DNA from: a virus
Reading direction: 5' to 3' (one strand)
DNA: 64,000 nucleotides
IMG/VR virus record: IMGVR_UViG_3300005288_000003
Location: 1-64,000 of that record
Of this stretch, positions 14,810-56,859 are shown one piece after another; positions within the stretch are counted from its first letter, which is position 1; the number at the start of each line of letters is the position of its first letter. The translations under genes and the position numbers were made by a program. Below the pieces are notes generated by a model that was not told the origin of the DNA, ran no database searches, and was given only the letters and a program-made list of their open reading frames with translations.

Positions 14810-16777
14810 TCAGTATTGCGATTCACCGCCCCATTGCTGGTATTCAACAAAGCCTCGCTCTGCAAGGCCACGTCGAGAGCTACCACGAGAGCTTTCACGC
14901 TCTTCTTCTTTGGCAGCTTGACCAGCTTCGTACTCTGCTCGTGCTGCTGGGTTCTTAGTGAGGTAGTCTTCCAGATCGTACAAAGTGTGTTCCTTGTTCG
15001 CGTAGAAGTACTCCCCAGCCTTCGGCCCTGTGTTGCCAGTCCAACGACACTTAGTCATCTTCATGTACGTGATGTTACGTTCAATCTCGCACTCAGCTTC
15101 TTTGTTTCGTGTGAACAACAGGTTGCACGCACCAGACTTGAAGATCGAGCTAGAGCCTTGGAAGTCCTCTTCGAACAGGTCTGCACCCGCCGAGTTCTGC
15201 TTCCCGCCCTGACCACTCTTACGGACGTGGTTGATGTTGATGAACGTCACCTTGTGGCTCTTCACAAGCCCTTTCTGCCAACGCATGAATACCGCCTGCT
15301 CTTCGTTGCTCATACCGTCCAGAATGTCTTGTAGAGGGTCGAGGATGATCACCTTGCAATCGCAGGAAATGATCAGCTCCATCACTTTCTCTTTCAGGTC
15401 ATCCAAGCCACCATCACGTTCGTCCAGCAAATGCCAACGGTGCGAGCCGTCAGGATTGTAGGTAAGCTCTTGAACAGCAGCCTCGAACTCTGGTGTGTTC
15501 ATCAGGTCGATTTTGTACTGCATATCTTCGATCAGTTCGAGCTTCTGACCAATGTGGCGCGAAGCCATCTTGATACCGTACTCTGCACAATCCGATTCCA
15601 GCGATACAACACCCACCTTGTGAGGCGAGTGGAAAATCCAGAAGTAAACCATTTCATCGACGATGGTCGATTTGCCCGTACCCGATGCAGAACCAAGGTT
15701 GACAATCCGGCCAAGTGGAATACCACCAGCCATCATCTTCTGTACCTTGTGCATGAACGCTGGCAATGGAATCTTCGGAACTACAGCCGCTGCTTTCATC
15801 AGAGAGAGCAACGATCCAGAACCAACAATACCGTTTGGCGTGTATGGCTGGCAAGCGAAGAACTCGGTGATGAACAGCCCTTGCTTGGCTACTGCCTGAT
15901 TCTTGTCTTTGTCCCACATGTAGCTGTTTGGGTCTTTCAGGGACATTTCCATGATGTACGCTTTGCCCTTCGGCAATGCCTTGGCGATCTTCTCTGCCGC
16001 TTCACGTCCAGCCGCATCGTTGTCCATGCAGATGATAACACGATCAAATCGGTTGAAGAACTCGTACTGTCCAACTACTTGCTTGTAGGCGCCAGATTCA
16101 CCGATGGTTGGCGACACAACGAACGTTGATTCGAAGTCTTGCCCTTTCTTGGCGTTCTCTCTTGCTCGGAAGTCAGCCAACATCTGATACGCCGAAAGCT
16201 GGTCAACTTCGCCGCCTACGATCAGGATATCTCGACTACGCTTTTGCAGGAAACGCCACTGGCCGAACATATGACAGTCCTTACCAGTTTCACCAATCCC
16301 CGCGAAGTCCTTGGGAATCATTCGTTTCTTGTAGCCTGTCAGCTCAAACCCCATATCGTTTTCAGCTTCTTGCGTGCACGGATAAAGCTGAGCAGACACA
16401 TTACCAGTGGCACCGTCAATCTCGTGACGTACTCCAAAGAAGGTGGTCGTATCTTTTCGAATACCGCGATAGCCAAAGCTGTCGTTTGTGGTTTGGGCTT
16501 TCAGTTGCTCGTGAATATCTGCGTTGAACAAACTGCCCACTAGATCATACTCCTTTTCAACTACTACACCGTTTTCTTCAAGCCACTCTTCGGAAGGGAT
16601 GGTAAAACCACCGCACCCACCGAAGCAGTGCGCTCCCTTGTGACGACCGTCTCTGTCGGTGCCATACACCATCAGGTTGTCGCCGCTGTTGTCCATGCCT
16701 TTCGCCACGCACTTTGGACAAGCAACCTTGCCCTCGGTATACAGGTCAATACCGTACTTATCTGCTACATCTGACAC
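14810..16777 (-). CDS. T7 gp4-like primase-helicase
   Basis: N-terminal CPKC...HCFGGC Zn finger, Toprim GGEVD/MDNDAAG, Walker A ASGTGKST, ILDP, INHVRK. Confidence 0.93.
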   Translation of the reverse strand: MSDVADKYGIDLYTEGKVACPKCVAKGMDNSGDNLMVYGTDRDGRHKGAHCFGGCGGFTIPSEEWLEENGVVVEKEYDLVGSLFNADIHEQLKAQTTNDSFGYRGIRKDTTTFFGVRHEIDGATGNVSAQLYPCTQEAENDMGFELTGYKKRMIPKDFAGIGETGKDCHMFGQWRFLQKRSRDILIVGGEVDQLSAYQMLADFRARENAKKGQDFESTFVVSPTIGESGAYKQVVGQYEFFNRFDRVIICMDNDAAGREAAEKIAKALPKGKAYIMEMSLKDPNSYMWDKDKNQAVAKQGLFITEFFACQPYTPNGIVGSGSLLSLMKAAAVVPKIPLPAFMHKVQKMMAGGIPLGRIVNLGSASGTGKSTIVDEMVYFWIFHSPHKVGVVSLESDCAEYGIKMASRHIGQKLELIEDMQYKIDLMNTPEFEAAVQELTYNPDGSHRWHLLDERDGGLDDLKEKVMELIISCDCKVIILDPLQDILDGMSNEEQAVFMRWQKGLVKSHKVTFININHVRKSGQGGKQNSAGADLFEEDFQGSSSIFKSGACNLLFTRNKEAECEIERNITYMKMTKCRWTGNTGPKAGEYFYANKEHTLYDLEDYLTKNPAARAEYEAGQAAKEEERESSRGSSRRGLAERGFVEYQQWGGESQY

Positions 16778-17401: not shown

Positions 17402-17561
17402 CGTATACGTCCTTTTCGTGTAGGTTTTCGATAAACACTCGCCACATTGCAGGGCCAGTCGGTACAGCAGACACATCGTAGCCGAGAGGATCGGTCCTGT
17501 CAAACAGTTTCTGCACGAACTCTTGCATCTGTGTTTGTAGGAAGGCTTCCGTCACACGCAT
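17352..17561 (-). CDS. Hypothetical protein
   Basis: ORF in a dense array. Confidence 0.55.
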   Translation of the reverse strand: MRVTEAFLQTQMQEFVQKLFDRTDPLGYDVSAVPTGPAMWRVFIENLHEKDVYDVEYKDGWHWMRVLGS

Positions 17562-17731
17562 CGCATTTCTCCAATAGCTTCGGTGAGGTAGGATTGTAGT
17601 TGTGCGGCTTGTTCCATGTCAAGCATTATCGTTTCCTGACTCCCATGTGTGCCGTCTACTGCAATGAACAGGCGGTTGTCGAGTGTGTGAACCACTTCAA
17701 TGCGGCGGTCGTCTGATGTGTCGATAATCAT
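17552..17731 (-). CDS. Hypothetical protein
   Basis: AAAGGAG RBS before ATG at 17731. Confidence 0.6.
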   Translation of the reverse strand: MIIDTSDDRRIEVVHTLDNRLFIAVDGTHGSQETIMLDMEQAAQLQSYLTEAIGEMRCV

Positions 17732-17753: not shown

Positions 17754-17783
17754 AAGAAAAGCCCCGCTGCATAAGCACGGGGC
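17754..17783 (-). terminator. Rho-independent terminator
   Basis: GCCCCG-TGCTTATGCAG-CGGGGC followed by TTTTCTT. Confidence 0.85.
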
Positions 17784-17795
17784 CATTCAATTGTT

Positions 17796-18075
17796 TGTCC
17801 TGTCACCGGCAGCTCGGGGCACTGTCAGGGTCGATAGAATAACACCACTCAACCTGAATCCGAGATTCGATAATCTTTTCGCTTTCGACGTTACGTGGCT
17901 AATAGATTAGTCGTTGACGTTTGAAGCTTTGCCCTTTCATCGTTGATCTTTGACCGTAGTCACCGCGACATTTATCAGAATGTTTGGTTTAAAAGACCAG
18001 TTCTTAATAGGCTCCGAGCTTCACAGCCGCTCGGAATAGCTGATTCTAGTGAAGACAGTTCACCGGAACAAGACA
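17796..18075 (-). ncRNA. Putative ~280-nt structured RNA with heptamer repeats
   Basis: ORF-free; 5' TGTCTTGT.CCGG pairs with 3' CCGG..ACAGGACA; internal hairpins; NNNAA(A/C)G array at 17868-17954. Confidence 0.7.
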
Positions 18076-18081
18076 TAAACT

Positions 18082-18696
18082 TTACACTTCTACTTTCGTA
18101 GTCGCGTTAACTTCCGACAGAGCGAAGTCCACTTCCAGAAGGAAGGCATCGATTTCGGCAGCCAGAGCATCAATGACCTTGGTCACGTCGCTTGGGTCAA
18201 GCACTTCTGCTTTGTTCTGAGCTTCGAACGGGCCAGTGATGGCTTTCAGTTCAGCTTCGTCAACCTTGCGGTCTTTACCCACAGCAGTGCGAATCAGGTC
18301 ATCCAGACGCTGTTGAACAGAAACGTTGGTACGTTCAACGAGGGCGATTTGCTGTGCCTGTTGTTGACGTAGTGTACCCAGCAGGGTCTGTTCCAGAGCG
18401 ATGGAGCTTTTACGCTCGATGGCTTCTGCTACAGTCTGAACCACACCAGCAATGGTCACGGTGGTCACAGCGTTCGAACGAACGATAGCTGCTTTCAGTG
18501 CCTTGCGTTGCTTGATCAGGTCTTGAACCGATTGGAGGTTTGCCTTCAAGATTTCAGAAATCTCTTGAGCTGGTTTGCCAGATGGGTGCTTACCGCCAAC
18601 TACGTTGGAAATGAATGCCTGAGCTGTGGTCCGTGCAATACGGTCGTTCAGGGATTTGACTTGTGCCAAAGCACGAGTTACGGAAATCTGTGTCAT
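18082..18696 (-). CDS. 204-aa coiled-coil protein (DIP1984/septicolysin-like)
   Basis: MT.ISVTRALAQVKSLNDRI...LKAAIVRSNA.T...TVAEAIE...EVDFALSEVNATT; strong RBS. Confidence 0.75.
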   Translation of the reverse strand: MTQISVTRALAQVKSLNDRIARTTAQAFISNVVGGKHPSGKPAQEISEILKANLQSVQDLIKQRKALKAAIVRSNAVTTVTIAGVVQTVAEAIERKSSIALEQTLLGTLRQQQAQQIALVERTNVSVQQRLDDLIRTAVGKDRKVDEAELKAITGPFEAQNKAEVLDPSDVTKVIDALAAEIDAFLLEVDFALSEVNATTKVEV

Positions 18697-18732
18697 TGTC
18701 TTTCTCTCCTTTGTTTGTCTTTGTATTGGGCC

Positions 18733-18760
18733 ATTCTACACTAGAACAGCCCGTTGTCAA
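18733..18760 (-). promoter_or_regulatory. Promoter TTGACA-N16-TAGAAT(GGCC)
   Basis: Directly upstream of the 204-aa gene. Confidence 0.8.
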
Positions 18761-39150: not shown

Positions 39151-41504
39151 TATTTGGTTTCCTTGGTGTTGATCATCGCGTCACGAAGAACGTTAGCCAT
39201 AGCCTCTTTAACCATTCCGGGCATCAGTGCCATGTTACTGGTCAGCTCTTGTGCGTTAGCACCCCCGATGGTTACAGGCATTGTCACTTCGATTGGAGGA
39301 ATACGCATAGCATCTTGCACAATGAATGCTTGTTTCAGTTCTTCCAGTTTCGCCACCAGCTCTTCCGGGTTGAACGAGTTAGTTGGAACATCTGTCTGCC
39401 CCGGCAATGAAGCTGCTGATTCTGCTGTGTACTTCTCTTGCAGTTGAGCGTCTACCCACTCTGGCCCCATTACAGTAGCTAGCATGTTACGGGCGTTGGC
39501 CTCGACTGTTGTACCAGAAGAGTTTGTTTGCTGAGCGTATTGTCCGGCCTTCACAAATCGAGTAACAGCAGCGTTGAAAGTTTCCATCAAGGCCGTCAAT
39601 TCACGCATTGTGTTGACCAGCATTTCAGGGAAGCTCAATCCCTGCAAGCCGCCAGCAAGTTCTATCGCCATGTCCAGTGCAGCTTTCAGGTTGTCTCCGA
39701 AAGTCTTAGCAGCAGTTGCCATATTGTCCATAGCAGTCTGTGCTTCTGGCGACTGAGAAAGCCAACGGCCAAACAGGGAATCACCTCCCTCTGAATAAGT
39801 GATCAAGTCGTCCAGTGCAAGAGCGATCAATCCGATAGCAGCAGCGACACCACCAAATGGCATCATTACAACTCCGGCTGTTACGCCTAGAGCTGCAAGT
39901 TGCCCACCAGTCATTCCAAACAAGGCAGCGATACGTGGAAGTTGTCCAAGCAAAGTACCACCAACGTTGATAACTGCGTTGATAGGTTCGATCAGCAAGT
40001 TGAATGCTTCCCCTAGTGCTTTCACACCCGGCTCTGCGTCCCGCATACCATCTGCCATTGCTCTAAAGAACTTACCCATACCCTTGTCGAAGCCAGCGTC
40101 GGAGAAGACCGCTACAGTGTCAGAGAAGGCGTTGTTCATACGGGCTTGTTCAGCAGCCGTAGATTTCATAGCCTTTTCAAGAGCACCACCCTGACGGGCA
40201 CGAGCAGCAAGAATAGCAGCAAACTTCTCTAGAACGGCGCCAGACTTAACGTCACCATTCTTCATTGCATCCATCAACTTACCAACAGCCTTATCATCTG
40301 TACCGAATCCAGCAGCCTCGGCCATCGCTGACTCTGCCCCCGGCATACGTTCCGAAAGTTGTCCTTTCAGTTCTTCGGACATTACTTGGCCTTTGTTCAT
40401 CATCTGTTCAATGGCTTTCATCGAACCTTTCATGGACTCTGTATCAAGACCCATTACACGTCCGTATTCAGAAACACCTTGGAATACAGATTGAACACCT
40501 TCCGTTGACATGCCAGATGTTTTACCAGAAGCAAGCATCTTGTTATACGATGGAGCGGTTTGACGGTAGTCCATACCAATCTTATTGGACAGGTCTTTCA
40601 CCCACTTGCTTTGTTCCTGACCAGCTTCCTCGCTGCCCATTACGGCAGTCATGGCGTTCTTCTGGCCTTGCATTTGTTGGTTGATCTGGTTGAGCTGACT
40701 GAATGCGAATGCAGCACCAAGGCCGGGAATCGCTCCACGCATGAAGCCCATACCTGCACCAGCGATACCACCGCCTAGAGCGCCTTCACGTGCGACTCTA
40801 CGGGCAGCTCCAGCCTTACCACCGCCACTGCCCCCACCATTAACTACTTTCGTGCGAACAGTGAACTCGTGGTTGCTGATAGCTGCTCTGATTTGGGCAC
40901 GTAGTGCTTGTTGGTCAACAGCCAGTTTCAGTTTCGGGTCTTTCAAGTCGATTGTCATTGCACCGACCTTGCCCTTCGCTGCCATCAAACTTCTACGGAC
41001 GTTGGCAATGAAACGAGCTTGGCTAATGTCAGCATCGATCTTGAGTTTGTATTTAGATTCAGTACCTTTCTTCCAGCTACGAAGTGTAGCGTCTGCCACC
41101 TTTGTATCGATCTGTAGAGGAATCTTAACTTGCATCTGGCTAAGTAGGGTACGGATGAAACGCTTCTGTCCTACAAGGTCTGCCACATCAACTTTGATGT
41201 TGGACAAACGGATCGGAGTCTTGTCGAGGCGATCACAGATTTTCTTGCTGGCCGCCATCAGAGCTTCTTCGCTTACAGCGAAGTTTCTGAAAGTGATCTT
41301 AGCATTGGTAGCCTTTTCCAGTTGGGCACGTAGCGTTCTTGAGTCGAGGCTGACCTTGATGTTGAATTTCTTATTTGCTGCAACTCCGAATTGTTGGAGC
41401 ATGGTTGTTACACCAGCCAATCTCTTTTCGAATGCAGCAAGAGGACGGGCGTCTACGTTAAACTTCAACGTACCCGTTAGTCTTGCGATTTCTTCTTGGA
41501 TCAT
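39150..41504 (-). CDS. Tape measure protein
   Basis: Ala/Gly-rich helical; QMMNKGQVMSEELKGQLSERMPGA tape-measure domain. Confidence 0.9.
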   Translation of the reverse strand: MIQEEIARLTGTLKFNVDARPLAAFEKRLAGVTTMLQQFGVAANKKFNIKVSLDSRTLRAQLEKATNAKITFRNFAVSEEALMAASKKICDRLDKTPIRLSNIKVDVADLVGQKRFIRTLLSQMQVKIPLQIDTKVADATLRSWKKGTESKYKLKIDADISQARFIANVRRSLMAAKGKVGAMTIDLKDPKLKLAVDQQALRAQIRAAISNHEFTVRTKVVNGGGSGGGKAGAARRVAREGALGGGIAGAGMGFMRGAIPGLGAAFAFSQLNQINQQMQGQKNAMTAVMGSEEAGQEQSKWVKDLSNKIGMDYRQTAPSYNKMLASGKTSGMSTEGVQSVFQGVSEYGRVMGLDTESMKGSMKAIEQMMNKGQVMSEELKGQLSERMPGAESAMAEAAGFGTDDKAVGKLMDAMKNGDVKSGAVLEKFAAILAARARQGGALEKAMKSTAAEQARMNNAFSDTVAVFSDAGFDKGMGKFFRAMADGMRDAEPGVKALGEAFNLLIEPINAVINVGGTLLGQLPRIAALFGMTGGQLAALGVTAGVVMMPFGGVAAAIGLIALALDDLITYSEGGDSLFGRWLSQSPEAQTAMDNMATAAKTFGDNLKAALDMAIELAGGLQGLSFPEMLVNTMRELTALMETFNAAVTRFVKAGQYAQQTNSSGTTVEANARNMLATVMGPEWVDAQLQEKYTAESAASLPGQTDVPTNSFNPEELVAKLEELKQAFIVQDAMRIPPIEVTMPVTIGGANAQELTSNMALMPGMVKEAMANVLRDAMINTKETK

Positions 41505-41519
41505 AACAGCCTCGCTGAA

Positions 41520-41789
41520 TTATCTCTGTGCCGCTTGAGCCTGTTCTGCTTTGATGCGAGCTAGTTCATCAAACTCCATCTTCACTTCAAGGATTTCAAG
41601 CATGTTGTGTAGGTCTTCCACGTTGCAAACTGTGTCAAGCTCCACGTAAGTTGCCATCGGTCTTTCGGCAGTCAGGACAAGATAGATTTCCCAGTCTTGT
41701 CCGAACTTCTCTTGTAGCCGAGCTACACGGGGATGAACAGTCTGTGGCTCCCCGCTATTTACACGGCGGAACCGAGTAGAGTAAAAACC
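41520..41789 (-). CDS. Tail assembly chaperone C-terminal extension (-1 frameshift product)
   Basis: Open -1 frame from G-GTT-TTT (41789-41783) to TAA at 41520; fills the gap before the tape measure gene. Confidence 0.7.
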   Translation of the reverse strand, partial: GFYSTRFRRVNSGEPQTVHPRVARLQEKFGQDWEIYLVLTAERPMATYVELDTVCNVEDLHNMLEILEVKMEFDELARIKAEQAQAAQR

Positions 41790-42660: not shown

Positions 42661-43164
42661 TTAAAATACCCCGAACTGTTTAAGGATTGGAAGGGTGCTG
42701 CTGGCAACCAACAGGGAATCTTCGATAGCGCTGGTGTCTTCGTTACCGCCGATGGTGAACACCACATCTGAGCAGCCGAATACCCATTTACGTTCTGACA
42801 TTTCAGTTCCAAAGTCTACGTCTGGAATCGATTCTACCCACGCCGAAGCTGCTAGGAAGTTTGTCTGTCCACGTCCATCTTTGATGAACAATGGGAATTT
42901 ACCCATGTGGGTAGTTGAGTCAATGTTGTAAAGCATGGACAGGATGTTGTTGCTGGATGATGATTGCATCAGCGTCAGTTCAACTCTGTATCCTGTGTCG
43001 TCGAAGTACATGCGGGCAATCTCACCGTCCATAGCTCTTACCTTATAGAACGGTTTGCAGTCTTTTATAATTCGAATGAATGTGCCGTCAATGTATCCTG
43101 TAACGGAGTGCATCCCCGCGAGGGTAACTGTTACGTCGGAAGGCGAGTATGTCGATAGTGCCAT
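42661..43164 (-). CDS. Tail tube-like protein (paralog 2)
   Basis: TYSPSDV...LMQSS.SN.ILS...D..G. Confidence 0.65.
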   Translation of the reverse strand: MALSTYSPSDVTVTLAGMHSVTGYIDGTFIRIIKDCKPFYKVRAMDGEIARMYFDDTGYRVELTLMQSSSSNNILSMLYNIDSTTHMGKFPLFIKDGRGQTNFLAASAWVESIPDVDFGTEMSERKWVFGCSDVVFTIGGNEDTSAIEDSLLVASSTLPILKQFGVF

Positions 43165-43179
43165 TTTATTTTCTCCAAT

Positions 43180-43212
43180 AAAAAGGGGCCGCCATCGTTA
43201 GATGGAAGCCCC
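43180..43212 (-). terminator. Rho-independent terminator after the tail tube gene
   Basis: GGGGC..CCATC/GATGG..GCCCC followed by TTTTT. Confidence 0.7.
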
Positions 43213-43219
43213 AGCGATG

Positions 43220-43747
43220 TTAACCAATCCACTTAGCGTCGATTGAACCACCCAGTGTCGTAATAACGTCTTGGTCTTCTGGTGAGAGAACCGCGTTACC
43301 ACCGATGTAGGTGTCAAGGTTGTGAGCGTGCAATACCCAGTCACGTGTCTGCATCGAGTTAGCGAATGCAGAGTTTGGAACTACACCAACATAAGCGTCG
43401 TCGCTAAAGAAGCGGCTACGGCCAGAGGCGTCTGAGATTTGCAGAGAGAACAAACCAGAGCTGTTACGGGTAGCCGCGTCGTTTGCGTAAAGCAAAGACA
43501 GGATATCGTTAGAAGCAGAAGTTTGTTGCAGGCTCAAAGTGACTTTAGCACTTTTGTTTGCGTTGTAAATACGTGTCGATGTGTTGTCAGCACCAGTGTA
43601 CATGGTGAATGTTTCAGCAACACGTTCGATTTGTACAATGCTGTCTTCACTGTACCCGCTCACAATGTGAGCAATACCCGAAGAGCGTTGTGTGATAACG
43701 ACGTTCACATCATTTGGAGCGAACGTTGCTAGACGTTGAGTAGCCAT
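43220..43747 (-). CDS. Tail tube protein
   Basis: TFAPNDV...LQQTS.SND.LS; follows the sheath gene. Confidence 0.8.
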   Translation of the reverse strand: MATQRLATFAPNDVNVVITQRSSGIAHIVSGYSEDSIVQIERVAETFTMYTGADNTSTRIYNANKSAKVTLSLQQTSASNDILSLLYANDAATRNSSGLFSLQISDASGRSRFFSDDAYVGVVPNSAFANSMQTRDWVLHAHNLDTYIGGNAVLSPEDQDVITTLGGSIDAKWIG

Positions 43748-53202: not shown

Positions 53203-53274
53203 TGGAGCAGAATGTCAGAATCGAACTGACCTCATCAGCTTGGAAGGCTGGGCGCTCACCTTGAGCAATCCTGC
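53203..53274 (-). tRNA. tRNA-Gly(TCC), short D-arm
   Basis: Cloverleaf, CT-TCC-AA loop, TTCGA T-loop, encoded CCA. Confidence 0.8.
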
Positions 53275-53628
53275 ATGAATTTCTCTATGACAGTTGGCAC
53301 AGACCAGAATACACTTATCAACTTCTGCTAGCATCCTTTCGACGGTAGAGTAGTTGTTGATCAGACTCGATGGTTTGTTCTCTTTAACAGACGGGTCTAC
53401 ATGATGGAACTCCAGAGCCGCACTGCACTTATCGTATCCACAGATAGAACAACTATCTCCGAACAGCTCGTACAGAATGCGACGCTTTTCTTCCACAAAA
53501 GAACGTCTGTTGTTTTCCTCGCAAGGTATGCACAAAGGTTTGTACTTTTGCTTACCGGAGGTTTGTTTGCCATTTGTATAGAACTCTGTCAAAGGTTTCA
53601 CATCGAGGCAGGTTTTACACTGCTTCAT
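53215..53628 (-). CDS. HNH endonuclease whose C-terminus reads into tRNA-Gly
   Basis: KQCKTC...KPL.EFY, CSICGYDKC..ALEFHH, C.LVCANCHREIH; GAGG RBS before ATG at 53628. Confidence 0.8.
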   Translation of the reverse strand: MKQCKTCLDVKPLTEFYTNGKQTSGKQKYKPLCIPCEENNRRSFVEEKRRILYELFGDSCSICGYDKCSAALEFHHVDPSVKENKPSSLINNYSTVERMLAEVDKCILVCANCHREIHAGLLKVSAQPSKLMRSVRF

Positions 53629-53652
53629 GTTTACCTCATTCAGTTTGTAATT

Positions 53653-53729
53653 TGGTGGGGCCGGAACGAATCGAACGTTCGACCTGTGGGGTTTCAAGCC
53701 ACCGCTCTAACCTACTGAGCTACAACCCC
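53653..53729 (-). tRNA. tRNA-Phe(GAA)
   Basis: Cloverleaf, CCA. Confidence 0.85.
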
Positions 53730-53734
53730 TTGTG

Positions 53735-53809
53735 TGGAGCCATCTATGGGAGTTGAACCCATCTATTACTGGTTTGCAATCAGCACCCTAGCCGCTCAGG
53801 CAAGATGGA
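53735..53809 (-). tRNA. tRNA-Cys(GCA)
   Basis: Cloverleaf, U73, CCA. Confidence 0.8.
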
Positions 53810-53816
53810 CATAATT

Positions 53817-53893
53817 TGGTGGATACAGGTGGGGATCGAACCCACGACATCCGCATTGCAAGTGCGGCGCTCTCCCATCTGAGCTACTGACCC
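53817..53893 (-). tRNA. tRNA-Ala(TGC)
   Basis: Cloverleaf, G3-U70, CCA. Confidence 0.88.
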
Positions 53894-53900
53894 ATGTGTT

Positions 53901-53974
53901 TGGGGTGACGCAGAGATTCGAACTCTTTCAACCGGGTCACAACCGGAAGTCTCAGCCAGAGAGAACGACGCCAC
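53901..53974 (-). tRNA. tRNA-His(GTG)
   Basis: GTG anticodon, C73, CCA. Confidence 0.75.
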
Positions 53975-54168
53975 AGTCAAGCGTGTTGCTTATCGCGTTT
54001 GCTGCCGCTTTCTCCCAGCGATACCCGAAGGCTTGATAGGACGGTACGATGTCTGCCCTCACTGCACGAATGCTTTCGGGTATAACACCTTTTCAACAAA
54101 ATTGGGTGCAGGACCGGGAGTGCATGCCCGAATTTCCCAACCGTCTCCTTGACAGTTGCCTACATAAT

Positions 54169-54242
54169 TGGTCAGGGTGGAAGGTAACGCTCCTTCTTCT
54201 CAGGATTCCAAATCCAGCACATCACTTTAATGCTTCACCGAG
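54169..54242 (-). tRNA. tRNA-Pro(TGG), atypical
   Basis: TT-TGG-AA loop, CCA; non-canonical T-loop and acceptor mismatches. Confidence 0.6.
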
Positions 54243-54247
54243 ATAAA

Positions 54248-54373
54248 TCATTTCGTGATTCGAATACCGAACCACCAGAAGTCGATCCTTACGGACCAAC
54301 GAGAATCGTTTTGTCCAAAGCCAACTCGCACCATACGGTTGTTGGGTTCCATTTGCACTTTATTGAATCTCAT
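54248..54373 (-). CDS. 41-aa protein within the tRNA cluster
   Basis: AGGAG RBS; MRFNKVQMEP...RIDFWWFGIRITK. Confidence 0.6.
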   Translation of the reverse strand: MRFNKVQMEPNNRMVRVGFGQNDSRWSVRIDFWWFGIRITK

Positions 54374-54392
54374 TTCATACTCCTGTTTAAAT

Positions 54393-54477
54393 TGGTGGTT
54401 GTTCAAGGACTCGAACCTTGGATGTATCATTGTGCCGGGTTACAGCCGGTTCTCTTCGCCGCTAGAGTAAAACAACC
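54393..54477 (-). tRNA. tRNA-Tyr(GTA)
   Basis: Cloverleaf, long variable region, CCA. Confidence 0.85.
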
Positions 54478-54485
54478 ATTTAAAT

Positions 54486-54562
54486 TGGCAGGCAATAGAG
54501 GACTCGAACCTCCCATCTGCTGGTTAACAGCCAGCGACCCACGCCCGGTGAGATCATTGCCT
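54486..54562 (-). tRNA. tRNA-Asn(GTT)
   Basis: Cloverleaf, G73, CCA. Confidence 0.85.
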
Positions 54563-54663
54563 AGAAATCTTCCACGTATGTTTTGGCTCGCCGTGGAACG
54601 AGGGGCCGAGATTTTTATTCCGCTTCGGACGCAGAGCGGTACAGTGGGGAGCAACCCAGTGTT

Positions 54664-54744
54664 TGGTTGCGAAGGGTGGAATCGAACCACTTGCGTCCGG
54701 TTATGAGCCGGTTGACACTTGCCTTGCGTCTTAGCGCCCTCGCA
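54664..54744 (-). tRNA. tRNA-Met(CAT), extended D region
   Basis: CT-CAT-AA loop, TTCGA, CCA. Confidence 0.75.
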
Positions 54745-54750
54745 TTTGTT

Positions 54751-54826
54751 TGGTTGCCGGAGCAGGGCTTGAACCTGCGACCTACCGCTTATCAAGCAGT
54801 TGCTCTACCAACTGAGCTATCCGGCA
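54751..54826 (-). tRNA. tRNA-Ile(GAT)
   Basis: Canonical cloverleaf, CCA. Confidence 0.9.
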
Positions 54827-54832
54827 TTAAAT

Positions 54833-54906
54833 TGGTGCCCCATCACGGAATCGAACCGCATTCTCAACGTTACAAAGGTCATGTAATACCAATATACTAA
54901 AAGGGC
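54833..54906 (-). tRNA. tRNA-Thr(TGT)
   Basis: Cloverleaf with weak anticodon stem, CCA. Confidence 0.75.
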
Positions 54907-55051
54907 ATGTAGCCCCTTACGAGGGCCATGCGGGCGTAGTTGCATCATGCTTGAGCCTTACCACAGGCCCACTTTACCGCGTTGATGTTTGCGGGATAAG
55001 CCTACCGAGATGGCTTTCTCATTGCGACATTTCTGTCCTCGGGCAACAAAT

Positions 55052-55126
55052 TGGCGGTTTATAAGGGAGTTGAACCCTTCCCTCTGGCGTGACAGGCCAG
55101 TGTACTAACCGATATACTAATAGACC
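55052..55126 (-). tRNA. tRNA-Asp(GTC)
   Basis: Cloverleaf, G73, CCA. Confidence 0.88.
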
Positions 55127-55130
55127 AAAT

Positions 55131-55207
55131 TGGTACTCTGCCGGGGACTCGAACCCCGTTCATGAGGGTGAAAACCTCATATCCTAAACCGCGTAGACGA
55201 GCAGAGC
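55131..55207 (-). tRNA. tRNA-Glu(TTC)
   Basis: Cloverleaf, CCA. Confidence 0.88.
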
Positions 55208-55217
55208 ATTTGTTTCT

Positions 55218-55343
55218 TTACTTGGCAGAAGGTGGTTTACCCGGCTTGCCTTTGTTCGGATGACGACCTTTAGGGTCTTTGCGAGAAGCCTTGTCAACCG
55301 GAGCGTGTTCTTTTGTAGCATCGTAATACTTCGACATCTTCAT
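55218..55343 (-). CDS. 41-aa basic peptide (not in ORF track)
   Basis: AAGGAG RBS; MKMSKYYD...KGRHPNKGKPGKPPSAK. Confidence 0.6.
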   Translation of the reverse strand: MKMSKYYDATKEHAPVDKASRKDPKGRHPNKGKPGKPPSAK

Positions 55344-55362
55344 TTCTCCTTTGTTTTGAATT

Positions 55363-55438
55363 TGGTACAGATGATAGGATTCGAACCTATCTGGTACGCC
55401 TTCGTAGGGCGCTGCCTATCCAATCGAGCCACACCTGT
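55363..55438 (-). tRNA. tRNA-Arg(ACG)
   Basis: Cloverleaf, CCA. Confidence 0.88.
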
Positions 55439-55460
55439 ATATCTTGTTGCTATAAGGAGG

Positions 55461-55488
55461 ATTCTACACGACATTTGCACAATGTCAA
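55461..55488 (-). promoter_or_regulatory. Internal tRNA-cluster promoter TTGACA-N16-TAGAAT
   Basis: Consensus hexamers. Confidence 0.8.
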
Positions 55489-55502
55489 GCGTTTATTTAA
55501 AA

Positions 55503-55953
55503 TTATTTTAGATTGTGATCAAATTCCCAATGGCAGTTCGGACAAAGAAGCATCAGGTTACTGCGGGCATTGATCACACTCAGCATCGTATCGTCAGGGA
55601 AGTCAGCCACTGCTCTGATATGTGCAACCTCTACGTGCTTATCATATCCACACTTTTGACATAAAAACAGGCTCAGCAGCTACAGAGGCTCTTGCTCGAC
55701 TGCGAACTAAAGCATAGGCGGAAGACCTATGATGTTTCTCGTAGATAGCTTCTGCAAGCGTCATATCCTTCACGATGTGAGCACTATGTTCATCACAGAC
55801 AGTTCTTCGACCGCTTACAGGGATTGAACATACTTTACACGCTCTTTGTACTCTGGCTCTCTTCGGCGTCTTGTTCGTCACTGTTGTGGCACAAGTCCTA
55901 CTGCAATATTTTCTATTCTTTGTGGGCGTTCCACAATTTCCGCAATCGATCAT
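55503..55953 (-). pseudogene. HNH endonuclease split by a 1-nt frameshift in a T5 run
   Basis: N-terminal Zn-finger ORF stops at 55642; the +1 frame continues CQKCGYDKHVEVAHI...NLMLLCPNCHWEFD; 451 nt = 3n+1. Confidence 0.8.
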
Positions 55954-55966
55954 GATGCTCCTTATT

Positions 55967-56041
55967 TGGTAGACCTGCTTGGGATCAAACCAAGACTAAC
56001 TCTTTAGAAGAGAGTTGTGCGATTCACTACACTACAAGTCC
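55967..56041 (-). tRNA. tRNA-Arg(TCT)
   Basis: Cloverleaf, CCA. Confidence 0.8.
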
Positions 56042-56189
56042 AGAAGGCTCCTGCACATCCACTGTACCAATCCAGCATGCTGCTATCACAATCAAGACCC
56101 TTAATTCGAGGACGACATTTATAGCACGCAGTCGTCTGTGCGTCAACACCCTGAGTTGGTTTCAGAGTCATACCAAGGCGCGGTACGTT

Positions 56190-56265
56190 TGGAAGAGGAT
56201 ACTGGAATCGAACCAGTCTAAACGGAGTCAAAGTCCGGTGCCTAACGCCAATCGGCCAACCCTCA
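56190..56265 (-). tRNA. tRNA-Gln(TTG)
   Basis: Cloverleaf, CCA. Confidence 0.85.
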
Positions 56266-56407
56266 ATTAAATAGTACCGGCCATCAGGAAAGACATGGCC
56301 ATGCCCTCCATCCGACCTAGTTGACTTCCTCTGTATTCTTTGTAGGCTCCAATACCCAGTATCACCTGCCGGGGCTCGAACCCGGTATACAGTTACTCAT
56401 CAATGTT

Positions 56408-56494
56408 TGGTGCCCCCAGTCGGACTCGAACCGACACGCATATTTCAGCCACAGGGTCTAAGCCTGCTACGTCTACCAATTCCATCACAGGGAC
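56408..56494 (-). tRNA. tRNA-Leu(TAG)
   Basis: Cloverleaf with variable arm, CCA. Confidence 0.88.
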
Positions 56495-56508
56495 GTGATA
56501 TTTCAATT

Positions 56509-56582
56509 TGGTGCTTCTTGATGGAATCGAACCACCGTAGCCACCGTGTAAGGATGGCGTTCTACCATTAAACTAAAGAAGC
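56509..56582 (-). tRNA. tRNA-Val(TAC)
   Basis: Cloverleaf, CCA. Confidence 0.88.
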
Positions 56583-56583
56583 T

Positions 56584-56668
56584 TGGTCGGGATAGTGAGA
56601 CTCGAACTCACATGGCCGAAGCCCACAGGGTTTGAACCTGCTGCGAATACCAGTTCCGCCACATCCCG
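56584..56668 (-). tRNA. tRNA-Leu(CAA)
   Basis: Cloverleaf with variable arm, CCA. Confidence 0.88.
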
Positions 56669-56674
56669 TTTATT

Positions 56675-56763
56675 TGGAGGCTAGTGTGAGATTCGAACTC
56701 ACGAGCCGTTTCCGACTGTCGGTTTTCAAGACCGGTGCTTTTTATCCACTCAGCCAACTAGCC
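56675..56763 (-). tRNA. tRNA-Ser(TGA)
   Basis: Long variable arm, CCA. Confidence 0.85.
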
Positions 56764-56769
56764 ATGTTT

Positions 56770-56859
56770 TGGTAGCGGATGTAGGATTCGAACCTACGGG
56801 GCCATTTCTGACCCGACGCTTTAGCAAAGCGTTAGATTAAGCCACTCTCTCAATCCGCT
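56770..56859 (-). tRNA. tRNA-Ser(GCT)
   Basis: Long variable arm, CCA. Confidence 0.85.

What the first reader, a model, noticed from the sequence alone, without database searches (positions are those of the whole stretch)
17754..18760. Self-contained protein + repeat-RNA unit: 204-aa coiled-coil gene followed by a 280-nt end-paired RNA with 7-nt repeats
Seen: promoter (18760-18733), strong RBS, 204-aa helical ORF, 280 nt with no ORF in an otherwise gap-free region, then an intrinsic terminator. The RNA ends pair (TGTCTTGT.CCGG with CCGG..ACAGGACA) and it has internal hairpins (TCCGAGC/GCTCGGA). Its core is a 7-nt-period array: GTCAAAG ATCAACG ATGAAAG GGCAAAG CTTCAAAC GTCAACG, a short CTAAT/ATTAG palindrome, then CGTAACG TCGAAAG CGAAAAG ATTATCG (consensus NNNAA(A/C)G). 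The protein pattern recalls the uncharacterised DIP1984/septicolysin-like oligomeric coiled-coil family (from memory, unverified). Inference: a ribonucleoprotein in which each protomer binds one heptamer (ring or filament, as TRAP does with periodic repeats). Alternatives are a type III toxin-antitoxin-like pair or a decoy for A-rich-site RNases such as ToxN.
Basis: partly seen in the sequence, partly recalled or inferred. Interest (0 to 1): 0.88.

Follow-up and report, generated by a model that had tools for sequence, protein, structure and literature searches.

The report
Phage helical protein with heptad-repeat RNA
Behind a small helical-protein gene, this Pseudomonas phage encodes a real, knotted non-coding RNA of about 280 bases with a row of 7-base repeats; the same gene-plus-RNA pair occurs in model phage T5, many other large phages and many bacterial chromosomes, and I found no paper or catalogue entry for it.

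Summary
The unit consists of a sigma-70 promoter, an RBS, a 204-aa helical ORF, an ORF-free stretch of about 280 nt and a terminator hairpin.

The ORF-free stretch is a genuine structured RNA. On 28 relatives, 96.8% of cells pair, against 35-48% when the partners are slid; 27 of 42 pairs show compensatory changes. It has a three-part closing stem, one hairpin and two pseudoknots.

Its core is a 7-nt-period array (n-U-Y-A-A-A/C-G) in which U and the first A are invariant from Bacillus phages to Pseudomonas phages.

The RNA travels with the gene. Its 3' half was found directly downstream in 86 of 87 viral loci, with no hit in 321 kb of control sequence. It was also found in 78 of 80 bacterial-genome loci that were not used for training.

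The protein (phrog_1491, T5 gene T5.085, 3,589 clusters) is a remote structural relative of the uncharacterised C. diphtheriae protein 3KDQ (Z 11.7).

Neither Rfam, Pfam nor any paper I could search describes the pair. The most likely reading is a ribonucleoprotein in which protomers line up on the heptads, but binding was not tested and the function is unknown. In T5 the gene was dispensable in a published knock-down screen.

This scan has already found the same family on other DNA several times.

The parts
18733..18760 (-). sigma-70-type promoter, TTGACA-16 nt-TAGAAT
   Evidence: 11 of 12 matches; no other promoter-like site lies between the gene and the RNA
18704..18710 (-). ribosome-binding site AGGAGAG, 7 nt before the ATG
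   Evidence: read from the sequence
18082..18696 (-). 204-aa helical protein, phrog_1491; homologue of T5 gene T5.085; remote structural relative of PDB 3KDQ
17798..18073 (-). structured non-coding RNA of about 276-282 nt (whole element)
   Evidence: nhmmer envelope; covariation
18061..18072 (-). P1a 5' strand of the closing stem; pairs with 17799-17811
   Evidence: 12 pairs, 7 with compensatory change, 99.7% of cells paired
17799..17811 (-). P1a 3' strand
18054..18059 (-). P1b 5' strand; pairs with 17821-17826
   Evidence: 6 pairs, 4 compensatory, 98.8% paired
17821..17826 (-). P1b 3' strand
18043..18048 (-). P1c 5' strand; pairs with 17835-17840
   Evidence: 6 pairs, 5 compensatory, 89.8% paired
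17835..17840 (-). P1c 3' strand
18012..18036 (-).
   Evidence: 9 pairs, 8 compensatory
17957..18011 (-). variable region with small lineage-specific hairpins; relatives carry a T-arm mimic or a whole tRNA here
17868..17954 (-). heptad array of about 12 units, n-U-Y-A-A-A/C-G, interrupted by the CTAAT/ATTAG mini-hairpin at 17899-17910
17860..17864 (-). pseudoknot PK1 5' strand (CUCGG); pairs with 17813-17817 (CCGAG) and crosses P1b
   Evidence: 100% paired; 41 distant sequences: 90.8% paired against 35-47% when slid; found de novo in 67 bacterial sequences
17813..17817 (-). PK1 3' strand, followed by the conserved GCUG
17851..17854 (-). pseudoknot PK2 5' strand; pairs with 17829-17832 and crosses P1c
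   Evidence: 99.1% paired, one strongly covarying pair; inconclusive in distant clades
17829..17832 (-). PK2 3' strand
17754..17784 (-). intrinsic-terminator hairpin plus U tract
   Evidence: the position is conserved with a different sequence in phage Bitten

Best explanation
This is one self-contained transcription unit. It produces a 204-aa helical protein and, from the same transcript, a knotted non-coding RNA of about 280 nt. The two most likely act together as a ribonucleoprotein.

The RNA is clamped shut by a tripartite closing stem of about 24 bp and by two pseudoknots. This holds out a stretch of about 85 nt made of roughly twelve 7-nt units (n-U-Y-A-A-A/C-G).

My inference is that several protomers bind side by side, one per heptad, through the conserved basic N-terminal half of the protein. 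That would give a particle or short filament whose size is set by the RNA. Co-transcription, with the RNA starting 8-30 nt after the stop codon, would favour assembly in cis.

The job of the particle is not known. The module is dispensable for T5 in the laboratory, is often embedded in phage tRNA operons, sometimes carries tRNA-like inserts, and also sits alone in bacterial chromosomes. I therefore think an accessory role is most likely, either in conflict between phages, hosts and other mobile elements or in tRNA/translation biology.

Shown here: the RNA is real, its structure is conserved, and it is co-inherited with the gene. Inferred: binding, stoichiometry and role.
For: 1. RNA structure. 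On 28 relatives aligned by MAFFT, the structure I named pairs in 96.8% of cells, against 35-48% when partners are slid by 1-3 columns. 27 of 42 pairs show changes on both sides, and 0 of 500 shuffles reach the observed values (RNAalifold found the nested part independently).

2. Conservation. The 3' domain is 87-93% identical to the two nearest phages, while the coding sequence is 76-78% identical.

3. Linkage. Iterated nhmmer found the 3' half directly after the gene, on the same strand, in 86 of 87 viral loci, with no hit in 321 kb of flanks and reverse complements. The frozen profile then found it in 78 of 80 loci from bacterial and archaeal assemblies that played no part in training. PK1 was recovered de novo there, with up to 5 pair types per position.

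4. Closing stem. One was found sequence by sequence in 73 distinct loci, with median energy -19 kcal/mol and a median span of 330 nt.

5. Heptads. 7-nt spacing accounts for 26% of intervals against 1.9% in shuffles. U and A are invariant at 7-column intervals across Gram-positive and Gram-negative phages.

6. Protein. The family is uniform in length (about 205-215 aa) and comprises 3,589 clusters at 50% identity. Net charge is +5 (median) in residues 1-100 and -7 in residues 101-204. All seven conserved basic positions (K14, R19, R22, R64, K68, R95, K96) lie in the N-terminal half, next to the invariant S74-N75.

7. Self-containment. The window has its own promoter and terminator. In bacterial chromosomes the flanking genes differ in every genome examined and are mostly ordinary cell genes: permease, MFS transporter, TetR regulator, chemotaxis receptor, two-component system and UvdE. 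An integrase or a transposase flanked the unit in two of them.

8. Accessory role. T5.085 was scored 'Not fit' in the CRISPRi-ART knock-down screen of T5 (PMC11879866, supplementary file 16).

9. tRNA link. 34 of 60 loci have same-strand tRNA genes within 1.5 kb, and a complete tRNA is nested inside the RNA in two loci.
Against: No experiment or prediction here shows that the protein touches the RNA.

The protein as a whole is near neutral or slightly acidic (median pI 5.9). It carries no known RNA-binding domain.

No expression data for the RNA were available for this phage.

Co-inheritance would also follow if the RNA only served the mRNA in cis.

The heptad sequence is conserved rather than variable, so nothing points to a target. 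The CRISPRi-ART call has limited sensitivity; its authors report that some essential T4 genes were also scored 'Not fit'.
Confidence: 0.6

Rival explanations
1. The RNA acts on its own, as a decoy, sponge or ribozyme aimed at a conserved host factor. Examples would be an RNase, a tRNA-targeting defence nuclease or a tRNA-handling enzyme. Each heptad (U-N-A followed by stacked purines) would imitate the U-turn of a 7-nt anticodon loop. The protein would be only a helper, or unrelated cargo on the same transcript.
For: The invariant U and A two positions apart fit the U-N-R U-turn rule, and the unit length equals that of an anticodon loop (the rule itself is from my own knowledge). The module sits in tRNA operons in 34 of 60 loci, and T-arm mimics or whole tRNAs are nested in the RNA. 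The knotted core with invariant motifs (AAAUCC, GACYC, GCUG) resembles a compact functional fold.
Against: The strict 1:1 linkage with one protein family over about 3,600 clusters, in very different genomic settings, is hard to explain if the protein were irrelevant. In the window itself the tRNA cluster lies 35 kb away.
Confidence: 0.17
2. The pair is an addiction or abortive-infection type module working like a type III toxin-antitoxin system. The protein would be harmful when free, and the multi-site RNA would hold many copies of it in check.
For: It is a stand-alone two-part unit found in phages and scattered at unrelated chromosomal sites, sometimes next to an integrase or a transposase. 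One RNA offers about 12 sites. The gene is dispensable in T5.
Against: There is no similarity to ToxN, AbiQ or other defence-system proteins (PADLOC best E 0.0085, to an unrelated Cas8b model). The fold is a helical bundle. The RNA lies downstream with no terminator between it and the gene, and its repeats are 7 nt rather than 34-36-nt processed units. The pair is kept in essentially all T5-like virulent phages (441 records), where an addiction function makes little sense.
Confidence: 0.1
3. The stretch is only a cis-acting 3' untranslated element. It would stabilise the mRNA, provide an RNase III processing site, or control read-through into the downstream genes.
For: It begins 8-30 nt after the stop codon and ends at a terminator. 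A coaxial closing stem of about 24 bp would be a plausible RNase III substrate (from my own knowledge).
Against: About 280-400 nt with two pseudoknots, invariant motifs and a phased heptad array, conserved from Bacillus to Pseudomonas phages, is far more than a stabiliser needs. The downstream genes differ completely between genomes.
Confidence: 0.06
4. The stretch works as DNA rather than RNA, for example as iterons of a replication origin or as an unrecognised small gene.
For: Short phased repeats near replication genes (primase/helicase at 14810-16777). Stop-free runs of 38-74 codons exist in some frame.
Against: Compensatory changes preserve strand-specific pairing, including G-U pairs and pseudoknots. 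The element always lies on the gene's strand. It also occurs at ordinary chromosomal sites in bacteria. No frame is kept open across relatives.
Confidence: 0.02

Closest known systems
VIPR systems (Vipr protein plus vrRNA; bioRxiv 10.64898/2026.04.26.720920 and 10.64898/2026.04.26.720927)
   Same: A mostly phage-encoded minimal unit: a small protein with an adjacent non-coding RNA made of short tandem units and a structured, pseudoknotted part. In VIPR the protomers oligomerise along the repeats.
   Different: Vipr is a RAMP/RRM-fold protein, whereas this one is a helical bundle. VIPR units are 5 nt (GGY/NN) with hypervariable NN that encode DNA targets. Here the units are 7 nt and conserved across phyla, so nothing indicates programmable targeting. 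The array here is enclosed by a closing stem.
TRAP with the trp leader RNA, and HutP (Bacillus); from my own knowledge
   Same: A protein oligomer reads evenly spaced short RNA motifs, one per subunit.
   Different: TRAP is an all-beta 11-mer ring that binds (G/U)AG triplets in a regulated mRNA leader. Here the fold is different, no Pfam TrpBP match was found, the RNA is a dedicated knotted molecule, and no regulated gene is in sight.
PDB 3KDQ, an uncharacterised conserved protein of Corynebacterium diphtheriae; NCBIfam NF038048 (DIP1984 family); Pfam PF20935 (DUF6847)
   Same: It is the only solved chain with Z of 8 or more: Z 11.7, 149 of 152 residues aligned, next best 7.6. Foldseek gives probability 1.0. 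Weak sequence signals all fall on the same central helix-hairpin-helix region.
   Different: The sequence scores are far below the family cut-offs (11.9 against 70 bits; 12.5 against 27 bits). This protein is about 50 residues longer. The function of the DIP1984 family is itself unknown.
Type III toxin-antitoxin systems (ToxIN, AbiQ/antiQ); from my own knowledge
   Same: A protein gene with an adjacent repeat-containing RNA, forming a self-contained unit found on mobile elements.
   Different: The protein fold, the repeat length (7 nt against 34-36 nt), the gene order and the lack of an intervening terminator all differ.
Orphan Rfam motifs RAGATH-27 (RF03100) and RAGATH-19 (RF03096), which earlier notes of this scan name as covering fragments of relatives in gut phages
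   Same: If those notes are right, parts of distant members of this RNA family are already catalogued as candidate sRNAs of unknown function.
   Different: Neither family matched the window (E up to 10) or the 31 related loci I scanned. Neither entry describes the whole RNA, the heptad array or the partner protein.

Membership tests
phrog_1491 (labelled 'tail fiber protein') | full-length match to the family profile | tested here: met
   E 3.9e-68, residues 1-204 on profile positions 2-209 of 211. The label is not backed by anything seen here: the gene lies among early/replication genes and also occurs alone in bacterial chromosomes.
DIP1984 family (NF038048) / DUF6847 (PF20935) | sequence score above the curated cut-off | tested here: not met
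   11.9 bits against a cut-off of 70; 12.5 bits against 27.
DIP1984 family (NF038048) / DUF6847 (PF20935) | shared fold with the solved representative (3KDQ) | tested here: met
   VIA-align Z 11.7, 149 of 152 residues aligned, rmsd 6.8, next best chain Z 7.6; Foldseek E 3.7e-3, probability 1.0. That 3KDQ is the DIP1984 protein itself is my inference from organism, length and matched region.
Type III toxin-antitoxin (ToxIN-like) | toxin of the ToxN/AbiQ endoribonuclease fold | tested here: not met
   No such match in PADLOC, Pfam or NCBIfam; the model is a helical bundle.
Type III toxin-antitoxin (ToxIN-like) | antitoxin consisting of tandem 34-36-nt repeats upstream of the toxin gene, separated from it by a terminator | tested here: not met
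   No tandem repeat by TRF; the units are 7 nt; the RNA lies downstream with no terminator in between.
VIPR | RAMP/RRM-fold Vipr protein with G-loop and thumb | tested here: not met
   The model has helices plus one small beta-hairpin. No RAMP appears among the structural matches.
VIPR | vrRNA of 5-nt GGY/NN units with hypervariable NN | tested here: not met
   The units are 7 nt, A-rich, and conserved between phages of different phyla.
TRAP (MtrB) | TrpBP beta-sandwich subunit forming an 11-mer ring | tested here: not met
   No Pfam match; helical model.
Any Rfam 15 family | covariance-model match over the RNA | tested here: not met
   The only hit, at E 4.7, is to the terminator hairpin. Nothing was found over the RNA in 31 related loci.

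The most novel reading that the evidence does not exclude
The heptad array is a read-out surface rather than merely a binding platform. In this reading each protomer grips the A-A-A/C-G part of a unit and presents the U-turn triplet, so the particle displays about twelve anticodon-loop-like elements in a fixed register. It would use them to recognise, or to stand in for, a universally conserved cellular RNA partner such as tRNA, ribosome or mRNA. The effect would be to protect phage translation from tRNA-targeting defences or to redirect translation. This would be a widespread RNA-protein machine unrelated to CRISPR, VIPR or any known RNP, and it is open to genetics in T5.
Probability: 0.1. 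Interest if true: 0.93.

Novelty: categorically new. Interest (0 to 1): 0.82.

Why it matters
If the pair is an RNP, it is one of the most widespread uncharacterised protein-RNA modules in phages. The protein family has about 3,600 clusters at 50% identity. It is present in the classical model phage T5 (gene T5.085 plus the unannotated stretch 43142-43504 of NC_005859), in Bacillus, Vibrio, Lactococcus, Clostridioides and Pseudomonas phages, and as a solitary unit in many Bacillales chromosomes.

It would add a new protein fold and a new RNA architecture to the short list of assemblies that read phased RNA repeats. It would give a first functional handle on the DIP1984/DUF6847 superfamily. It would also explain a conspicuous "empty" 300-450 nt that genome annotations of hundreds of phages leave blank or mislabel as a tail fibre gene.

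The question can be tested directly with T5 and E. coli.

Tried and rejected
- Tandem Repeats Finder reported no array; the units are too short and too degenerate for it.
- The exact 18-mer from the RNA core found nothing in viral contigs.
- RNAduplex on long flanks was uninformative and slow. I replaced it with a short-arm search anchored on the GCUG motif.
- Public RNA runs: none was listed for this stretch, so expression could not be examined.
- I did not attempt a covariance model of the whole RNA, because the tool's stated size limit (about 190 positions) is below the 300 needed. I used iterated nhmmer plus explicit pair counts instead.
- PK2 could not be confirmed outside the Pseudomonas clade (72% paired against 66% when slid by one).
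- An early guess of a local hairpin (CGA-AUC-UCG) was dropped once the same bases proved to form PK1.
- RAGATH-27 and RAGATH-19, named by earlier notes of this scan, matched neither the window nor the 31 related loci scanned.
- Literature searches for the T5 gene name, DIP1984/septicolysin/DUF6847, heptanucleotide repeats, phage RNPs and T5 non-coding RNAs found no description of the pair.
- The 'tail fiber protein' label was considered and set aside as unsupported.
Full report
**What the window is.** The window is the first 64 kb of a 97.8-kb virus record. Its nearest public relatives are Pseudomonas phages Bitten and ventosus, at about 78-80% identity over the unit. It carries 18 tRNA genes at 53.2-56.9 kb. 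The finding lies among small early genes, just upstream of the primase/helicase gene (14810-16777).

**Observation.**
- Promoter: TTGACA-16-TAGAAT at 18760-18733.
- RBS and ORF: AGGAGAG seven bases before the ATG at 18696, then a 204-codon ORF ending at 18082.
- An ORF-free stretch, then a G+C-rich hairpin with a U tract at 17784-17754.
- The next gene starts at 17731.
- No promoter-like site lies between the ORF and the ORF-free stretch.

**The stretch is a structured RNA.** In a three-way alignment with Bitten and ventosus the stretch is better conserved than the coding sequence, and its first hairpin differs by fully compensated changes (identities).

I collected 80 viral loci that encode relatives of the protein and aligned the 28 distinct full-length RNAs of the Pseudomonas-phage clade with MAFFT. 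RNAalifold predicted a long nested closing stem and one hairpin, with 25 of 38 pairs showing compensatory change. A column-pair scan of my own added two short helices that cross the closing stem.

I then counted the complete structure on the MAFFT alignment, which was not fitted to it:
- 96.8% of 1,174 cells form a standard pair, against 35-48% when the 3' partners are slid by 1-3 columns.
- 27 of 42 pairs have changes on both sides.
- No shuffle out of 500 reaches the observed pairing, covariation score or count of compensated pairs.

In window coordinates the helices are:

| Helix | 5' strand | 3' strand |
|---|---|---|
| P1a | 18072-18061 | 17811-17799 |
| P1b | 18059-18054 | 17826-17821 |
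| P1c | 18048-18043 | 17840-17835 |
| P2 (hairpin) | 18036-18028 | 18020-18012 |
| PK1 | 17864-17860 | 17817-17813 |
| PK2 | 17854-17851 | 17832-17829 |

PK1 crosses P1b and PK2 crosses P1c, so the molecule is doubly knotted. PK2 is supported only within this clade.

**The heptads.** Across 69 distinct sequences aligned to a profile, columns with a fully invariant A recur every seven positions, each preceded two columns earlier by a nearly invariant U. The unit is n-U-Y-A-A-A/C-G.

In 67 raw tracts, intervals between AA[ACG]G motifs are exactly 7 nt in 26% of cases (1.9% in shuffles), 14 nt in 13% (2.2%) and 21 nt in 4.4% (1.5%).

The units are not hypervariable. The same heptads (for example UCAAAG AUCAACG) occur in this Pseudomonas phage and in T5-like phages, whose proteins are only 35% identical. 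A lineage-specific hairpin often interrupts the array in the middle; in the window it is the CTAAT/ATTAG mini-palindrome.

**Linkage with the gene.** The protein matches phrog_1491 over its full length and no Pfam or NCBIfam family above cut-off. tblastn finds it in 744 phage records, including T5-like, Bacillus (Herelleviridae), Vibrio, Lactococcus 949-like, Clostridioides and Erwinia phages. In every record I opened, 400-490 unannotated bases follow the gene.

A profile built from five RNAs and iterated with nhmmer reached 86 of 87 loci, always directly downstream and on the gene's strand. The same profile found nothing in 321 kb of flanks and reverse complements, and found one site in the whole 97.8-kb genome.

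As a prospective test I fetched 80 loci from bacterial and archaeal genome assemblies. These played no part in training, and the profile found the RNA after the gene in 78 of them. In a plain MAFFT alignment of 67 of these, PK1 came out de novo as the top covarying helix, with up to five pair types per position.

A closing stem was found sequence by sequence in 73 distinct viral loci. It runs from just after the conserved GCUG back to a segment near the stop codon. The median span of the RNA is 330 nt, with a range of 278-415.

In T5 the gene is T5.085, and the RNA falls in the unannotated stretch 43142-43504.

**The protein.** AlphaFold2 with a 46-sequence alignment gives a confident model (pLDDT 90.5). 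It shows five helices, including a long hairpin, plus a small beta-hairpin at residues 79-88.
- The only solved chain that stands out is 3KDQ, an uncharacterised protein of C. diphtheriae. VIA-align gives Z 11.7 with 149 of 152 residues aligned, and the next chain scores 7.6. Foldseek gives probability 1.0.
- Three weak sequence signals fall on the same central region: the NF038048 DIP1984 family at E 0.19, PF20935 at E 0.15, and a profile search against 3KDQ at E 0.077. An ESM Atlas neighbour cluster carries PF20935 in 16% of its members.
- The family is large (3,589 clusters at 50% identity) and uniform in length.
- It is electrostatically polarised. The N-terminal half carries +5 (median) and all seven conserved basic positions. 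The C-terminal half carries -7.

**Context and clues to function.**
- The unit has no constant neighbour. In phages it sits among early genes (this window, T5) or inside the tRNA operon. 34 of 60 loci have same-strand tRNA genes within 1.5 kb, several of them starting a few bases after the RNA.
- In Bacillus, Lysinibacillus, Brevibacillus and other chromosomes it lies between ordinary, unrelated cell genes.
- The variable region of the RNA holds a T-arm mimic in some lineages and a complete tRNA in two loci.
- In the published CRISPRi-ART screen, knock-down of T5.085 had no measurable effect on T5 infection of laboratory E. coli ('Not fit'; PMC11879866, supplementary file 16). That assay misses some essential genes.

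Together these clues point to an accessory, self-sufficient module rather than a core replication or virion function.

**Mechanism.** I commit to a ribonucleoprotein, at about 0.6.
- The knotted frame holds out about twelve phased units.
- The partner protein, translated from the same transcript a few bases upstream, binds them side by side through its basic half.
- The RNA therefore sets the size of the particle.

The invariant U-N-A fits the U-turn rule, and the unit has the length of an anticodon loop. This, together with the tRNA context, is the basis of the more speculative tRNA-mimic reading. None of the binding steps has been shown.

The rivals are an RNA that acts alone, a type III-like addiction pair, a mere 3' UTR element, and a DNA-level element. 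They are weighed in their own sections.

**Comparison with what is known.** The nearest concept is VIPR, described in 2026 preprints: a phage-encoded protein plus a tandem-repeat RNA on which protomers polymerise. The protein fold, repeat length, repeat variability and overall RNA architecture all differ, so this is not a VIPR. TRAP and HutP are functional analogies only. Type III toxin-antitoxin features were tested and not met.

Rfam 15 has no family over this RNA, either in the window or in 31 related loci. I found no paper on it.

**Earlier notes of this scan.** The same gene-plus-RNA family was reported on other genomes several times, with the same general reading. Those notes gave me the VIPR reference, which I read myself. 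They also claimed that fragments are catalogued as RAGATH-27/19, which I could not reproduce on my loci.

**Verdict.** This is a real, strongly conserved and, as far as I can tell, undescribed protein-plus-RNA module. Its anatomy is well supported; its binding mode and function are inferred.

Noticed in passing
L057:2238-2314 and L058:2213-2287: A complete tRNA-shaped sequence (tRNA-Thr UGU in L057; one with an odd anticodon loop in L058) is nested inside the variable region of the heptad RNA, between P2 and the repeat array. If it is processed, the RNA would be cut into two pieces held together by P1 and the knots.
   Followed up: partly
L012:1395-1699, L015:2119-2422 (also L007, L010): The variable region carries a hairpin with a canonical T-arm sequence (5-bp stem, loop UUCGAAU or UUCAAAU), which looks like a tRNA T-arm mimic.
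   Followed up: no
L110:2230-2409 and 2573-2768: In a Parabacteroides MAG contig, two tandem copies of the RNA 3' domain follow a single copy of the gene.
   Followed up: no
L170:1948-2230: A bona fide DIP1984-family gene of Brevibacillus fortis (191.7 bits) is followed by about 270 ORF-free bases that end in a terminator. This stretch contains a piece resembling the 3' half of a class II tRNA (variable arm plus T-arm). It has no heptad array and no match to the RNA profile. The wider superfamily may also pair with RNAs.
   Followed up: partly
L002:4683-4770 and L030 (first 90 nt after the stop codon): Phage ventosus and one metagenomic phage share a similar insert of about 85 nt between the stop codon and the 5' end of the RNA. 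It is absent from the window and from Bitten, and its nature is unknown.
   Followed up: no
L089:2849-3567 (T5 40848-41566): The T5 record annotates a 719-nt 'RNAX, stable RNA with unknown functions' next to tRNA-Arg, 2 kb from T5.085. It is a different element from the one studied here.
   Followed up: no
L001:3577-4665: The Bitten record annotates a 362-aa ORF on the opposite strand across the homologue of this gene and does not annotate the gene itself. This is probably a mis-call.
   Followed up: no
H76 (Salmonella phage bastian, NC_048870 75848-77471): An HNH endonuclease gene is inserted within the gene-plus-RNA region of one T5-like phage; the match is split into two pieces.
   Followed up: no
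L069:1151-1238 and L072:1151-1238; L077:427-654: A skipping-rope RNA (RF02924, above its gathering score) lies about 260 nt upstream of the gene in two gut-phage loci. A group I intron-like match (36 bits, below the cut-off) lies upstream in another.
   Followed up: no
P0249: One family member is 474 aa long with three matched stretches, so it may be a tandem fusion or duplication of the protein.
   Followed up: no
window 53203-56859 (-): A cluster of 18 tRNA genes lies on the same strand as the unit but 35 kb away. In many relatives the unit sits inside such a cluster.
   Followed up: partly
window 17552-17731 (-): The 59-aa ORF just downstream gives a weak, sub-threshold hit to the T4 y05I-like putative transcription factor C-terminal domain (PF24448, E 0.0027).
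   Followed up: no
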